This document shows positions 2,352 to 7,521 of a stretch of 49,197 nt of DNA, piece after piece. Origin of the DNA: Escherichia phage D2. The translations under genes and the position numbers were made by a program. Each line of letters begins with the position of its first letter. The first letter of the stretch is position 1. Below the pieces are notes generated by a model, which searched no databases, was not told the origin of the DNA, and saw nothing but the letters and a program-made list of their open reading frames with translations. The DNA lies in sequence record OM475427, one strand, 5' to 3'.

Positions 2352-2541
2352 ACTGCAGGCGCTGCGTCAGGCGCGCCTTGATTTATTAACCGGTAAACGG
2401 GTGGTGTCTGTCCAGAAAGATGGTCGCAGAATTGAATATACGGCGGCTTCTCTGGATGAGCTTAACCGGGCGATCAATGATGCGGAGTCGGTACTGGGGA
2501 CAACCCGGTGTCGCCGTCGTCCGCTGGGAGTGAGGTTATGA
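2335..2541 (+). CDS. W: Head-tail joining protein W
   Basis: 68 aa, same length as lambda W, shared motif LTGKRVVSVQKDGRRIEYTA; overlaps A and B as in lambda. Confidence 0.85.
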   Translation: MVTVAELQALRQARLDLLTGKRVVSVQKDGRRIEYTAASLDELNRAINDAESVLGTTRCRRRPLGVRL

Positions 2542-4127
2542 AACGAACGCCTGTCCTGATTGATGTGAACGGCGTTCCGCTTCGTGAGAGTCTCAGCTAC
2601 AACGGGGGCGGTGCAGGATTTGGCGGGCAAATGGCTGAGTGGTTGCCACCGGCGCAGAGTGCCGATGCGGCCCTGCTGCCCGCGTTGCGTCTGGGGAATG
2701 CCCGGGCAGATGATCTGGTGCGCAATAACGGAATAGCGGCTAATGCGGTGGCTCTGCATAAGGATCACATTGTCGGGCATATGTTTCTGATCAGCTACCG
2801 TCCGAACTGGCGCTGGCTGGGGATGCGGGAGACCGCAGCAAAAAGCTTTGTCGATGAGGTGGAGGCGGCCTGGTCGGAATACGCCGAAGGGATGTTTGGC
2901 GAGATCGACGTGGAAGGAAAACGCACGTTCACGGAATTTATCCGTGAAGGTGTGGGCGTTCATGCGTTTAACGGCGAAATCTTTGTGCAGCCGGTCTGGG
3001 ATACGGAAACCACGCAGTTATTCCGTACGCGTTTTAAAGCCGTGAGTCCGAAACGGGTGGACACGCCTGGACACGGTATGGGGAACCCTTTTCTGCGGGC
3101 CGGTGTGGAGGTCGATCGATATGGCCGTGCCGTCGCGTACCATATCTGTGAGGATGATTTTCCGTTCTCTGGTAGTGGACGATGGGAACGGATCCCGCGT
3201 GAACTTCCCACCGGGCGTCCGGCCATGTTGCATATTTTCGAGCCGGTGGAGGACGGGCAGACCCGTGGGGCTAATCAGTTTTACAGCGTCATGGAACGGC
3301 TGAAGATGCTCGATTCCCTGCAGGCAACACAGCTTCAGTCGGCCATAGTGAAGGCGATGTATGCAGCGACGATTGAAAGTGAACTTGATACCGAAAAGGC
3401 CTTTGAATATATCGCCGGCGCGCCACAGGAGCAGAAGGATAATCCGCTTATTAATATTCTGGAGAAGTTTTCCAGCTGGTATGACACGAATAACGTGACA
3501 CTGGGCGGTGTCAAAATTCCGCACCTTTTCCCTGGTGATGATCTGAAACTACAGACTGCGCAGGATTCAGACAATGGATTTTCTGCGCTTGAACAGGCGC
3601 TGCTGCGGTATATCGCCGCCGGTCTTGGCGTTTCCTACGAACAGTTGTCCCGTGATTACTCGAAGGTCAGTTACTCAAGTGCCCGCGCCTCCGCCAATGA
3701 GTCGTGGCGCTATTTTATGGGGCGGCGAAAATTTATTGCGGCCCGGCTGGCCACGCAGATGTTTTCCTGCTGGCTGGAAGAGGCACTTCTTCGGGGGATT
3801 ATTCGTCCGCCACGGGCACGTTTTGATTTTTATCAGGCGCGATCAGCCTGGTCACGGGCAGAGTGGATTGGTGCCGGAAGAATGGCCATTGACGGGCTCA
3901 AGGAAGTCCAGGAATCAGTGATGCGCATTGAAGCCGGACTGAGTACCTACGAGAAAGAGTGCGCAAAACGCGGTGACGACTATCAGGAAATTTTTGTCCA
4001 GCAGGTCCGTGAAACGATGGAGCGCCGTGCAGCCGGTCTTAAACCGCCCGCCTGGGCGGCTGCAGCATTTGAATCCGGGCTGCGACAATCAACAGAGGAG
4101 GAGAAGAGTGACAGCAGAGCTGCGTAA
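2538..4127 (+). CDS. B: Portal protein B
   Basis: MKRTPVLIDVNGVPLRESLSYNGGGAGFGGQMAEWLPP... essentially lambda gpB; start taken at the MKRTP methionine inside ORF 2508-4127. Confidence 0.9.
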   Translation: MKRTPVLIDVNGVPLRESLSYNGGGAGFGGQMAEWLPPAQSADAALLPALRLGNARADDLVRNNGIAANAVALHKDHIVGHMFLISYRPNWRWLGMRETAAKSFVDEVEAAWSEYAEGMFGEIDVEGKRTFTEFIREGVGVHAFNGEIFVQPVWDTETTQLFRTRFKAVSPKRVDTPGHGMGNPFLRAGVEVDRYGRAVAYHICEDDFPFSGSGRWERIPRELPTGRPAMLHIFEPVEDGQTRGANQFYSVMERLKMLDSLQATQLQSAIVKAMYAATIESELDTEKAFEYIAGAPQEQKDNPLINILEKFSSWYDTNNVTLGGVKIPHLFPGDDLKLQTAQDSDNGFSALEQALLRYIAAGLGVSYEQLSRDYSKVSYSSARASANESWRYFMGRRKFIAARLATQMFSCWLEEALLRGIIRPPRARFDFYQARSAWSRAEWIGAGRMAIDGLKEVQESVMRIEAGLSTYEKECAKRGDDYQEIFVQQVRETMERRAAGLKPPAWAAAAFESGLRQSTEEEKSDSRAA

Positions 4128-5625
4128 TCTCCCGCATATTGCCAGCATGGCCTTTAATGAGCCGCTGATGCTTGAACCCGCCTATGCGCGGGTTTTCTTT
4201 TGTGCGCTTGCAGGCCAGCTTGGGATCAGCAGCCTGACGGATGCGGTGTCCGGCGACAGCCTGACTGCCCAGGAGGCACTCGCGACGCTGGCATTATCCG
4301 GTGATGATGACGGACCACGACAGGCCCGCAGTTATCAGGTCATGAACGGCATCGCCGTGCTGCCGGTGTCCGGCACGCTGGTCAGCCGGACGCGGGCGCT
4401 GCAGCCGTACTCGGGGATGACCGGTTACAACGGCATTGTCGCCTGTCTTCAGCAGGCAATGGCGGATAGCCAGGTGCGGGGCGTACTGCTGGACATTGAC
4501 AGTCCGGGCGGGCAGGCCGCCGGCGCGTTTGACTGCGCTGACATGATTTACCGCCTCCGTCAGCAGAAGCCGGTCTGGGCACTGTGCAATGACACGGCCT
4601 GTTCTGCAGCCATGCTGCTGGCGTCGGCCTGCTCCCGACGGCTGGTTACCCAGACATCCCGTATCGGTTCCATTGGCGTGATGATGAGCCATGTCAGCTA
4701 TGCCGGTCATCTGGCGCAGGCCGGTGTGGATATCACGCTGATTTACTCAGGGGCGCACAAGGTGGATGGCAATCAGTTTGAAGCGTTGCCGGCAGAGGTT
4801 CGCCAGGACATGCAGCAGCGGATTGATGCGGCGCGCCGGATGTTTGCCGAAAAAGTGGCGATGTTTACCGGTCTGTCTGTTGATGCAGTCACAGGAACAG
4901 AGGCCGCTGTTTTTGAAGGTCAGTCCGGCATTGAGGCCGGGCTGGCGGATGAATTAATCAATGCGTCGGATGCCATCAGTGTGATGGCCACGGCGCTGAA
5001 CAGTAATGTCAGAGGAGGCACTATGCCGCAATTAACTGCAACGGAAGCCGCCGCGCAGGAGAACCAGCGAGTGATGGGGATCCTGACATGCCAGGAAGCG
5101 AAAGGACGTGAACAGCTTGCCACGATGCTGGCAGGACAACAGGGCATGAGCGTTGAACAGGCCCGGGCGATTCTGGCCGCGGCGGCACCGCAGCAGCCGG
5201 TGGCATCCACGCAGAGTGAAGCCGATCGCATTATGGCGTGTGAAGAAGCGAACGGTCGTGAACAACTGGCGGCAACGCTGGCGGCGATGCCGGAGATGAC
5301 GGTGGAAAAAGCCCGCCCGATCCTGGCTGCTTCACCGCAGGCGGATGCCGGACCATCACTCCGTGATCAGATCATGGCACTGGATGAGGCAAAAGGGGCT
5401 GAGGTGCAGGCTGAACAGCTGGCTGCCTGCCCGGGAATGACTGTGGAGTGCGCCCGGGCTGTGCTGGCTGCGGGATCAGGTAAGGCAGAACCGGTCTCTG
5501 CATCCACAACCGCCATGTTTGAACATTTCATGGCGAACCATTCACCGGCAGCGGTACAGGGTGGCGTGCCACAGACGTCAGCAGACGGTGATGCGGACGT
5601 GAAAATGCTCATGGCCATGCCATGA
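4108..5625 (+). CDS. C: Head protease/scaffold C (with nested Nu3-like scaffold region), C-terminal part expanded
   Basis: GTG start reading MTAELRNLPHIASMAFNEPLMLEPAYARVFF... as in lambda C (in frame with ORF 3973-5625). C-terminal region holds three diverged copies of the scaffold-like segment that lambda has once. Confidence 0.8.
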   Translation: MTAELRNLPHIASMAFNEPLMLEPAYARVFFCALAGQLGISSLTDAVSGDSLTAQEALATLALSGDDDGPRQARSYQVMNGIAVLPVSGTLVSRTRALQPYSGMTGYNGIVACLQQAMADSQVRGVLLDIDSPGGQAAGAFDCADMIYRLRQQKPVWALCNDTACSAAMLLASACSRRLVTQTSRIGSIGVMMSHVSYAGHLAQAGVDITLIYSGAHKVDGNQFEALPAEVRQDMQQRIDAARRMFAEKVAMFTGLSVDAVTGTEAAVFEGQSGIEAGLADELINASDAISVMATALNSNVRGGTMPQLTATEAAAQENQRVMGILTCQEAKGREQLATMLAGQQGMSVEQARAILAAAAPQQPVASTQSEADRIMACEEANGREQLAATLAAMPEMTVEKARPILAASPQADAGPSLRDQIMALDEAKGAEVQAEQLAACPGMTVECARAVLAAGSGKAEPVSASTTAMFEHFMANHSPAAVQGGVPQTSADGDADVKMLMAMP

Positions 5626-5661
5626 AGCCAGTGCTGACCATCAATAGGAGGTTTTAACAAT

Positions 5662-6009
5662 ATGGTGACGAAAACCATCACTGAACAGCGTGCGGAAGTA
5701 CGTATTTTTGCCGGTAATGATCCGGCTCATACCGCCACAGGCAGCAGCGGGATTTCTTCTGCAACACCGGCTCTGACGCCCCTGATGCTGGATGAAGCCA
5801 CCGGGAAACTGGTGGTCTGGGACGGACAGAAAGCCGGTAGTGCGGTTGGCATACTGGTACTGCCGCTTGAAGGCACAGAGACGGCGCTGACGTATTACAA
5901 GTCGGGAACCTTTGCGACGGAGGCAATCCACTGGCCTGAAAGTGTGGATGAACACAAAAAGGCCAACGCCTTTGCTGGCAGTGCCCTGAGTCACGCGGCG
6001 CTGCCGTAA
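5662..6009 (+). CDS. D: Head decoration protein D
   Basis: 115 aa, lambda D-like (NDPAHTATG..TPLMLD..KLVVWDG..AVGIL..YKSGTF..AFAG), correct position between C and E. Confidence 0.85.
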   Translation: MVTKTITEQRAEVRIFAGNDPAHTATGSSGISSATPALTPLMLDEATGKLVVWDGQKAGSAVGILVLPLEGTETALTYYKSGTFATEAIHWPESVDEHKKANAFAGSALSHAALP

Positions 6010-6066
6010 CACGTTATCAGGCCACCGCGCTGGCCTGACTGATTTCTGAATGAAAGGAACTGATTT

Positions 6067-7095
6067 ATGGGATTGTTTACGACCCGCCAGTTACTCGGTT
6101 ATACCGAACAAAAAGTTAAATTTCGTGCGCTGTTTCTGGAACTGTTTTTCCGCCGTACGGTGAATTTCCATACCGAAGAGGTGATGCTGGACAAAATTAC
6201 CGGAAAAACGCCGGTGGCGGCCTATGTCTCCCCGGTTGTTGAAGGAAAAGTGCTGCGTCATCGTGGTGGTGAAACCCGCGTGTTGCGTCCGGGCTACGTC
6301 AAGCCGAAACACGAATTTAATTACCAGCAGGCGGTTGAGCGCCTTCCTGGGGAAGATCCATCTCAACTGAATGATCCGGCTTACCGCCGTCTGCGTATCA
6401 TTACCGATAACCTCAAACAGGAAGAGCACGCGATTGTCCAGGTGGAAGAAATGCAGGCGGTAAATGCTGTGTTGTATGGCAAATACACCATGGAAGGAGA
6501 CCAGTTCGAGAAAATTGAGGTCGATTTTGGCAGGTCGACGAAGAATAACATCACTCAGGGTAGTGGTAAGGAGTGGTCAAAACAGGATCGTGACACGTTC
6601 GATCCTACACATGATATTGACCTCTACTGCGACCAGGCCAGCGGTCTTGTGAATATTGCCATTATGGACGGTACCGTCTGGCGTCTTCTGAATGGTTTTA
6701 AGCTGTTCCGCGAAAAACTGGATACCCGTCGCGGTTCAAATTCTCAACTCGAAACGGCAGTGAAAGATCTGGGCGCAGTGGTGTCCTTCAAGGGGTATTA
6801 CGGCGATCTGGCCATTGTGGTGGCGAAAATGTCTTATATAGCAGAAGACGGTATCGAAAAACGTTATCTTCCAGATGGCATGCTGGTTCTGGGGAATACT
6901 GCTGCAGATGGGATCCGTTGTTACGGTGCCATTCAGGATGCTCAGGCGTTGTCCGAAGGTGTGGTGGCCTCTTCCCGTTATCCGAAACACTGGCTGACGG
7001 TAGGGGATCCCGCCCGTGAATTTACCATGACGCAGTCCGCGCCGCTGATGGTGTTGCCGGACCCGGATGAGTTTGTGGTGGTACAGGTGAAATAA
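6067..7095 (+). CDS. E: Major capsid protein E
   Basis: 342 aa; length, position and sequence match lambda gpE. Confidence 0.9.
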   Translation: MGLFTTRQLLGYTEQKVKFRALFLELFFRRTVNFHTEEVMLDKITGKTPVAAYVSPVVEGKVLRHRGGETRVLRPGYVKPKHEFNYQQAVERLPGEDPSQLNDPAYRRLRIITDNLKQEEHAIVQVEEMQAVNAVLYGKYTMEGDQFEKIEVDFGRSTKNNITQGSGKEWSKQDRDTFDPTHDIDLYCDQASGLVNIAIMDGTVWRLLNGFKLFREKLDTRRGSNSQLETAVKDLGAVVSFKGYYGDLAIVVAKMSYIAEDGIEKRYLPDGMLVLGNTAADGIRCYGAIQDAQALSEGVVASSRYPKHWLTVGDPAREFTMTQSAPLMVLPDPDEFVVVQVK

Positions 7096-7103
7096 TCCGT
7101 GAG

Positions 7104-7132
7104 CGGGGGCGAAATGCCCCCGTGTCTTTTTT
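7104..7132 (+). terminator. Rho-independent terminator/attenuator after major capsid gene
   Basis: GC stem CGGGGGC/GCCCCCG with GAAAT loop followed by a T-run, 9 nt after the E stop codon. Confidence 0.5.
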
Positions 7133-7146
7133 CACAGGGGGCTGAT

Positions 7147-7521
7147 ATGGCAACGAAAGAGCAAAATCTGAAACGGCTTGATGAACTGGCCCTGATTCTG
7201 GGGCGTGAGCCGGATATATCCGGGAGTGCCGCAGAGATAGCGCAGCGGGTGGCAGAATGGGAAGAGGAAATGCAGTCATCCGGCGATGATGTACAGGTTA
7301 TGAATATGGATATCCGGGAGCGGGAAACCGCGGCTCATGATGTTCGTGAGGAAACATCCGGCGCGTTAACGCGCATCAGAGTTCTGACCTGCCTCCATCT
7401 CTGTGGCGTTGATGGTGAAACGGGGGAATCCGTTGAGCTTGCGGATGTTGGTCGGGTGATTCTGATTATGTCCTCAGATGCAAAAACACACGTTGACAAT
7501 AACGGGAGGCGCTGTGGCTGA
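7147..7521 (+). CDS. FI: DNA packaging/head completion protein FI-like
   Basis: ORF between E and FII; acidic protein in the FI position. Sequence diverges from lambda FI; start chosen at MATKEQNLKRL. Confidence 0.6.
   Translation: MATKEQNLKRLDELALILGREPDISGSAAEIAQRVAEWEEEMQSSGDDVQVMNMDIRERETAAHDVREETSGALTRIRVLTCLHLCGVDGETGESVELADVGRVILIMSSDAKTHVDNNGRRCG

What the first reader, a model, noticed from the sequence alone, without database searches (positions are those of the whole stretch)
5040..5480. Triplicated scaffold-like repeat in the C/Nu3 C-terminal region
Where lambda C/Nu3 has one copy of a ~40-residue segment (RIMGILNCEEAHGREEQARVLAETPGMTVKTARRILAAAPQ-like), this gene has three diverged tandem copies (RVMGILTCQEAKGREQLATMLAGQQGMSVEQARAILAAAAPQQ / RIMACEEANGREQLAATLAAMPEMTVEKARPILAASPQAD / QIMALDEAKGAEVQAEQLAACPGMTVECARAVLAAGSG), making C about 65 residues longer. 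Expansion of the scaffold domain could alter procapsid assembly or size determination.
Basis: seen in the sequence. Interest (0 to 1): 0.45.

Follow-up and report, generated by a model that had tools for sequence, protein, structure and literature searches.

The report
Known triple repeat in phage scaffold
The three tandem ~40-residue repeats are real, but they are the "Tri boxes" already annotated in the head protease/scaffold gene of coliphage 21, a common variant of the single-copy lambda C/Nu3 scaffold module, so this is an ordinary, previously described feature.

Summary
Gene C (window 4108-5625, 505 aa) carries three tandem 43-46-residue units (5059-5196, 5218-5346, 5359-5487). They are 53-62% identical to each other, z = 10-18 against shuffles. 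Lambda C has one unit.

It is not new. GenBank M81255 (phage 21 head operon) annotates the same segments as "Tri1 box / Tri box / Tri3 box, function unknown". The window's scaffold region is 98% identical in protein to phage 21, and genes D and E are 99% identical.

The three-unit region occurs in 1864 of 5426 complete E. coli genomes. The lambda one-unit region occurs in 3201.

The unit is a small three-helix bundle (AF2 pLDDT 87) with no Pfam model. It sits at the C-terminal end of S49 and ClpP-type head proteases and nested scaffold proteins across many bacterial phyla. It is nearly always single-copy, with 2, 3 or 4 copies in a few lineages.

An internal start (SD 5011-5018, ATG 5023) would yield a 200-aa scaffold made of three units on flexible linkers plus a tail.

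The most likely role (inferred, not shown) is a multivalent protein-binding module for prohead assembly. Nothing supports a change in capsid size. Interest is low.

The parts
4108..5625 (+). Gene C / phage 21 gene 5 equivalent: head maturation protease fused to the scaffold domain (GTG start, 505 aa)
   Evidence: ORF and translation. 90% identical to phage 21 gp5 and 69% to lambda C. phrog_53 head maturation protease.
4348..4998 (+). S49 (SppA-like) serine protease domain
   Evidence: Pfam PF01343 E=1.5e-34. Aligns to B. subtilis SppA 3rst_A at E=1.3e-16, with the nucleophile serine aligned.
5011..5018 (+). Shine-Dalgarno sequence AGAGGAGG for the nested scaffold gene
   Evidence: Sequence. 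The same site is annotated as a putative RBS of gene 6 in phage 21 records M81255 and OL657228.
5023..5625 (+). Nested in-frame scaffold gene (phage 21 gene 6 / lambda Nu3 equivalent), 200 aa
   Evidence: ATG 5 nt after the SD. 196/200 identical to phage 21 gp6. Annotated CDS. phrog_8399 head scaffolding protein is matched three times.
5059..5196 (+). Repeat unit R1 (Tri1 box, annotated equivalent 5090-5193); ortholog of the single lambda unit
   Evidence: Clusters with the lambda unit and with the first units of other proteins. AF2 three-helix bundle, pLDDT 86.7.
5197..5217 (+). Linker 1 (PVASTQS), predicted flexible
   Evidence: pLDDT dips below 50 at scaffold residues 61-63.
5218..5346 (+). 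Repeat unit R2 (Tri box, annotated equivalent 5230-5340)
   Evidence: Groups by position with the second units of Salmonella homologs.
5347..5358 (+). Linker 2 (AGPS)
5359..5487 (+). Repeat unit R3 (Tri3 box, annotated equivalent 5371-5484)
   Evidence: Groups by position with the third units of Salmonella homologs.
5488..5622 (+). C-terminal tail (45 aa) with two short predicted helices (AMFEHFM..., ...VKMLMA)
   Evidence: AF2 helices at scaffold residues 160-173 and 191-196. A tail of median 48 aa follows the last unit in homologs.

Best explanation
Shown: the segment is the triplicated 'Tri box' region of a phage-21-type head protease/scaffold gene (phage 21 genes 5/6, lambda C/Nu3). Each box encodes a ~40-residue unit predicted to fold as an independent three-helix bundle. 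The three units are joined by short flexible linkers and followed by a ~45-residue tail. They are present both in the full-length protease (505 aa) and in the predicted 200-aa scaffold protein that would start at the internal SD/ATG at 5023. The triplication is old. R1 is the ortholog of the single unit of lambda and of most other phages. R2 and R3 are extra copies already present before the E. coli and Salmonella phage lineages split. All three are kept under purifying selection. Inferred: each unit is a protein-protein binding module that attaches scaffold and protease to the growing shell, to the major capsid protein and/or the portal. If so, a three-unit scaffold is trivalent, whereas lambda Nu3 has a single unit. 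The expected effect is on scaffold-to-capsid stoichiometry or avidity, not on the T=7 capsid geometry.
Against: No experiment or structure assigns a function to the unit; the GenBank note says 'function unknown'. The binding partner is unknown. The tail, not the units, could be the capsid-binding element. Two-unit in-frame deletion variants exist in nature, so three copies may not be strictly required, although those may be defective prophages. The units are neutral to acidic by inspection of the sequence, unlike the basic coat-binding helix-turn-helix of the P22 scaffold. Expression from the internal start is inferred from sequence and from the annotations of phage 21, N15 and phi80, not measured here.
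Confidence: 0.6

Rival explanations
1. The units are self-association (oligomerisation) modules of the scaffold. The C-terminal tail is what binds the capsid protein, and extra units change scaffold multimer size rather than valency for the shell.
For: Lambda Nu3-Nu3 interaction has been reported (PMC3224144). A conserved tail always follows the last unit. The tail's first helix (ALDRLM in lambda, AMFEHFM here) aligns with helix A of a unit.
Against: AF2 predicts no contacts between the three units of one chain (pTM 0.28). There is no direct evidence either way.
Confidence: 0.2
2. The extra copies are functionally near-neutral length variation produced by unequal recombination. Copy number drifts without consequence for assembly.
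For: Copy number ranges from 1 to 4 among close relatives. Natural in-frame recombinant deletions exist (P0022, P0016, one IMG/VR locus), as does a recent 4-copy amplification (P0027). Both one-unit and three-unit forms are common in E. coli.
Against: The three copies have persisted long enough to saturate synonymous sites while keeping the core residues. They are positionally orthologous across E. coli, Salmonella, Trabulsiella and Providencia prophages. Each unit shows purifying selection. Deletion variants are rare: one in-frame R1/R2 deletion among 80 IMG/VR loci.
Confidence: 0.15
3. The repeated DNA carries a nucleic-acid-level function (CII-binding sites, an RNA element, or an antisense gene), and the protein repeat is secondary.
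For: Record OL657228 annotates two pattern-based 'CII binding sites' on the minus strand in this region. Four antisense ORFs of 61-104 aa overlap it.
Against: The pattern TTGYNNNNNNTTGY occurs 9 times in the window against 10.95 expected by chance. No Rfam match at E <= 1 in 3500-7500. No Pfam match for the antisense ORFs. Conservation between units is at codon positions 1-2 of the C frame, not at DNA level.
Confidence: 0.02

Closest known systems
Phage 21 genes 5 and 6 with 'Tri1/Tri/Tri3 boxes' (GenBank M81255; complete genome OL657228)
   Same: Same gene, same three repeats at the same positions, and the same internal RBS and ATG for the nested 200-aa scaffold. 196/200 residues are identical in the scaffold part, and the neighbouring genes shp/D and 7/E are 99% identical.
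   Different: Four amino-acid substitutions in the scaffold part. The first ~70 residues of C in the window are lambda-type instead of 21-type.
Lambda gpC protease / gpNu3 scaffold
   Same: Same S49 protease domain, same nested-gene arrangement, and the same unit (R1 vs the lambda unit 28/44 identical) followed by a short tail.
   Different: Lambda has one unit preceded by a ~48-residue linker rich in Ala, Thr, Ser and Val. The window has three units and a 12-residue lead. The product from the SD-preceded ATG is 131 aa in lambda and 200 aa here.
N15 gp5/gp6 and phi80 gene 5/gene 6, plus other single-unit S49 protease-scaffold genes
   Same: The unit is present near the C-terminus and a nested scaffold gene is annotated. 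Single copy is the rule in 75 of 81 ORFs from species-representative genomes.
   Different: One unit only.
ClpP-type (PF00574) prophage head protease-scaffold fusions of Alphaproteobacteria
   Same: They carry the same unit and a tail at the C-terminus.
   Different: Different protease family, and a single unit.
P22 gp8 scaffold C-terminal helix-turn-helix coat-binding domain (established knowledge; cited in PMC11922011)
   Same: A small helical module at the C-terminal end of a scaffold protein; a plausible functional analogy.
   Different: No sequence or fold match was retrieved. The unit here has three helices, is not basic, and is repeated.

Membership tests
Phage 21-type gene 5/6 (lambda C/Nu3 family) head protease-scaffold with Tri boxes | N-terminal S49 (SppA-like) protease domain | tested here: met
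   PF01343 E=1.5e-34. SppA structures 3rst/4kwb E~1e-16, with the nucleophile Ser aligned to Ser.
Phage 21-type gene 5/6 (lambda C/Nu3 family) head protease-scaffold with Tri boxes | Three tandem Tri boxes in the C-terminal third | tested here: met
   The annotated boxes of M81255 map to window 5090-5193, 5230-5340 and 5371-5484. Significance is shown.
Phage 21-type gene 5/6 (lambda C/Nu3 family) head protease-scaffold with Tri boxes | Nested in-frame scaffold gene with its own ribosome-binding site | tested here: met
   AGAGGAGG at 5011-5018 and ATG at 5023, identical to the annotated phage 21 gene 6 start. Translation itself is not testable here.
Phage 21-type gene 5/6 (lambda C/Nu3 family) head protease-scaffold with Tri boxes | Synteny portal - protease/scaffold - decoration protein - major capsid protein | tested here: met
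   B 2508-4127, C 4108-5625, D/shp 5662-6009, E/7 6067-7095. D and E are 99% identical to phage 21.
Phage 21-type gene 5/6 (lambda C/Nu3 family) head protease-scaffold with Tri boxes | Complete Ser/Lys catalytic dyad of S49 peptidases | tested here: inconclusive
   Ser aligns with the SppA nucleophile. The SppA general-base Lys column aligns to Tyr, with a Lys four residues downstream.
P22-type scaffold coat-binding helix-turn-helix | Sequence or fold similarity to the P22 gp8 C-terminal domain | tested here: not met
Any Pfam domain or repeat family covering the unit | Match above threshold to a curated model | tested here: not met
   No family over aa 306-505 of C. None of 21 units matches any Pfam model better than E=0.047. 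NCBIfam has none. Only PHROG families cover it.

The most novel reading that the evidence does not exclude
The ~40-residue three-helix unit would be the still-uncharacterised capsid- or portal-docking domain shared by the whole class of S49 and ClpP head protease/scaffold proteins (1296 representative proteins, no Pfam model, no solved structure). Its copy number (1 to 4) would set scaffold valency and hence scaffold-to-capsid stoichiometry. Phage 21 versus lambda would then be a natural, genetically tractable pair for testing how valency affects T=7 prohead assembly.
Probability: 0.4. Interest if true: 0.35.

Novelty: already known. Interest (0 to 1): 0.12.

Why it matters
It matters little as a discovery. 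The triplication was annotated in the phage 21 head operon record decades ago, and it is carried by roughly a third of complete E. coli genomes. The residual value is descriptive. The unit is a widespread, compact three-helix module of phage protease/scaffold proteins that has no Pfam model and no assigned function. Natural copy-number variants (1, 2, 3 and 4) offer a ready-made series for asking how scaffold valency affects prohead assembly.

Tried and rejected
- DNA-level tandem repeat detection found nothing useful: TRF gave no rows, and seed-based repeats were short and weak.
- Pfam and NCBIfam have no model for the unit.
- The PDB sequence search matched only the protease domain.
- Foldseek of the whole 200-aa model against PDB gave nothing, as expected for three units on flexible linkers.
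- tblastn of one unit against phage records was truncated by the low-complexity filter and did not separate tandem copies, so it could not be used to count copies.
- Literature searches for the phage 21 head-gene paper, for 'Tri box' discussion and for gpNu3 domain mapping found nothing usable. The gpNu3 paper PMC3247018 is not held.
- Nucleic-acid-level readings were rejected: CII sites are at chance level, there is no Rfam hit, and the antisense ORFs have no family.
- The first protein homology search returned mostly fragments, so its copy-number counts were cross-checked with IMG/VR loci, species-representative genomes and the representative library.
- The best-150 representative list is inflated by lambda-type fragments.

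Full report
**What is there.** The window is a lambdoid phage genome with the head-gene order portal B (2508-4127), C (GTG 4108-5625, 505 aa), decoration gene (5662-6009) and major capsid gene (6067-7095). I place the units at aa 318-363 (nt 5059-5196), 371-413 (5218-5346) and 418-460 (5359-5487).

**Is the repeat real?** Pairwise local alignment scores are 79-101, against 23-25 +/- about 5 for 2000 shuffles each. That gives z = 10.7-17.7, with no shuffle reaching the observed score, and 53-62% identity. R1 is most like the single lambda unit (28/44 identical, z = 23.6). Lambda C (439 aa) has one unit, and the window's C is 66 residues longer. The repeat is invisible at DNA level. Units share 68-82% identity at codon positions 1-2 but only 35-41% at position 3. 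This is an old duplication held by selection on the protein.

**It is already described.** The C region from window 4317 onward is 96.7% identical in DNA to phage 21, and 97.5% to phages 4A7, Lambda_4C10, 1W and 3W. The GenBank record of the phage 21 head operon (M81255) annotates three repeat_regions in gene 6: 'Tri1 box', 'Tri box' and 'Tri3 box', each 'function unknown; putative'. They map to window 5090-5193, 5230-5340 and 5371-5484. The scaffold part is 196/200 identical to phage 21 gp6, D is 114/115 identical and E is 340/342 identical. Identity to lambda is 46%, 53% and 62% respectively.

**The nested gene.** Phage 21 records annotate an internal gene 6 with its own RBS. The window has the same AGAGGAGG (5011-5018) and ATG (5023), giving a 200-aa product. 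In lambda the positionally equivalent ATG (record 5342, Met309 of C) is preceded by CAGGAGGG and would give 131 aa. RefSeq instead annotates nu3 from 5132 (201 aa). PHROG profiles of both lengths exist. The window's predicted scaffold is therefore essentially three units plus a tail. Lambda's equivalent is a ~48-residue lead, one unit and a tail.

**How common, and what copy numbers.**
- The three-unit region (5023-5625) is found at >= 80% coverage in 1864 of 5426 complete E. coli genomes, with 2922 places in all. The lambda one-unit region is found in 3201 genomes.
- In IMG/VR, 598 stretches encode relatives of the protease part. Of 83 ORFs analysed (80 IMG/VR loci, lambda, and two phage 21 loci), 77 have three full units. 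The rest are lambda itself, contig-end truncations, and one in-frame R1/R2 recombinant deletion.
- Other variants exist in the protein collection: two units through R1/R2 or R2 deletions (P0022, P0016), and four units (P0027).
- A profile of 21 diverse units (A2) finds 1296 representative proteins at E <= 0.001 among 1.84 billion. Of the best 150, 138 have one unit, 9 have two and 3 have three. Many of the 150 are fragments.
- In one-genome-per-species contigs, 75 of 81 unit-bearing ORFs have one unit, 2 have two and 4 have three. The three-unit ORFs are from E. coli, Shigella, Trabulsiella and Providencia. Hosts span Gamma- and Alphaproteobacteria, Acidobacteria, Leptospira, bdellovibrios, Planctomycetes and others.
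- Some alphaproteobacterial carriers have a ClpP-type (PF00574) protease instead of an S49 protease in front of the unit.
- A neighbour-joining tree of units puts R1 with the lambda unit and with all first units. R2 and R3 group by position with the Salmonella proteins. The extra units of the four-copy protein cluster with each other, indicating a recent independent amplification.

**Selection.** Among 48 distinct ungapped alleles, nonsynonymous/synonymous variant ratios are 0.62, 0.85 and 0.75 in R1, R2 and R3, and 0.73 in the tail. All three units are constrained to a similar degree.

**Mechanism (inferred).** The unit is an independently folding module that travels with two different protease families and with stand-alone scaffolds. 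It is always near the C-terminus and always followed by a 40-55-residue tail. Lambda Nu3 interacts with E, with C and with itself in two-hybrid assays, and is required for portal incorporation (PMC3224144). By analogy with the C-terminal helical coat-binding domains of other scaffolds (established knowledge; cited in PMC11922011), I take the units to be protein-binding modules that tether scaffold and protease to the shell. A three-unit chain would then be trivalent. I put this at about 0.45. The identity of the feature itself is near certain. The rivals are:
- units as oligomerisation modules, with the tail as the docking element;
- near-neutral copy-number drift;
- a DNA- or RNA-level function. 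This last one is rejected: CII-pattern matches are at chance (9 observed against 10.95 expected), there is no Rfam hit, and the antisense ORFs have no family.

**Capsid size.** Nothing suggests the triplication changes capsid size. The capsid protein is the same length as lambda's. Three-unit phages have lambda-sized genomes. SHP of phage 21 decorates the lambda lattice (PMC7602432).

**Verdict.** Interest is low.

Noticed in passing
window 3998-4437: A 440-nt stretch (end of portal gene B plus the first ~110 codons of C) matches phage lambda (NC_001416 4308-4747) exactly. It is flanked by exact matches to phage 21 (window 3229-3931 and 4430-4667). The closest whole-genome relatives (4A7, 3W, 1W, Lambda_4C10) lack this patch. 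No complete E. coli genome has the 21|lambda|21 junction region at >95% over its length. It looks like a recent gene conversion with lambda itself.
   Followed up: partly
L001 (lambda NC_001416) record 5132 vs 5342: RefSeq annotates nu3 from 5132 (201 aa) with no obvious SD upstream. The ATG at 5342 is preceded by CAGGAGGG, gives 131 aa, and is positionally equivalent to the phage 21 gene 6 start and to window 5023. PHROG profiles of both lengths exist.
   Followed up: partly
proteins P0022, P0016, P0027; one IMG/VR locus among L004-L083: Natural copy-number variants exist. In-frame deletions have hybrid R1/R2 junctions (GREQLA or VEQAR breakpoints), consistent with recombination between repeats. 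A four-unit protein has extra units 82-89% identical to each other, indicating recent amplification.
   Followed up: partly
L101, L127, L142, L144, L117, L152 (alphaproteobacterial genome loci): The same unit plus tail sits at the C-terminus of head proteases that did not match the window's S49 protease domain. Pfam scans of the two tested (L101, L144) gave the ClpP family (PF00574), and the others show the same N-terminal motifs. The scaffold module is therefore shared between two protease families.
   Followed up: partly
protein P0060 (174 aa, E. coli): An N-terminus with motifs typical of HK97-type prohead proteases is joined directly to R3 plus the tail of the 21-type scaffold. It is either a real recombinant or an assembly/frameshift chimera.
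   Followed up: no
window 5488-5540; lambda C aa ~403-420: The first tail helix (AMFEHFM here, ALDRLM in lambda) aligns with helix A of a repeat unit (DRIMA). The tail may therefore begin with a degenerate partial unit.
   Followed up: no
window 5028-5041 and 5262-5275 (minus strand): Record OL657228 annotates 'CII binding sites' here by pattern. The pattern occurs 9 times in the window against 10.95 expected by chance, so these are chance matches.
   Followed up: yes
window 5059-5487 (unit family in general): The unit has no Pfam or NCBIfam model despite 1296 representative proteins matching at E <= 0.001. It could be defined as a new domain family.
   Followed up: partly
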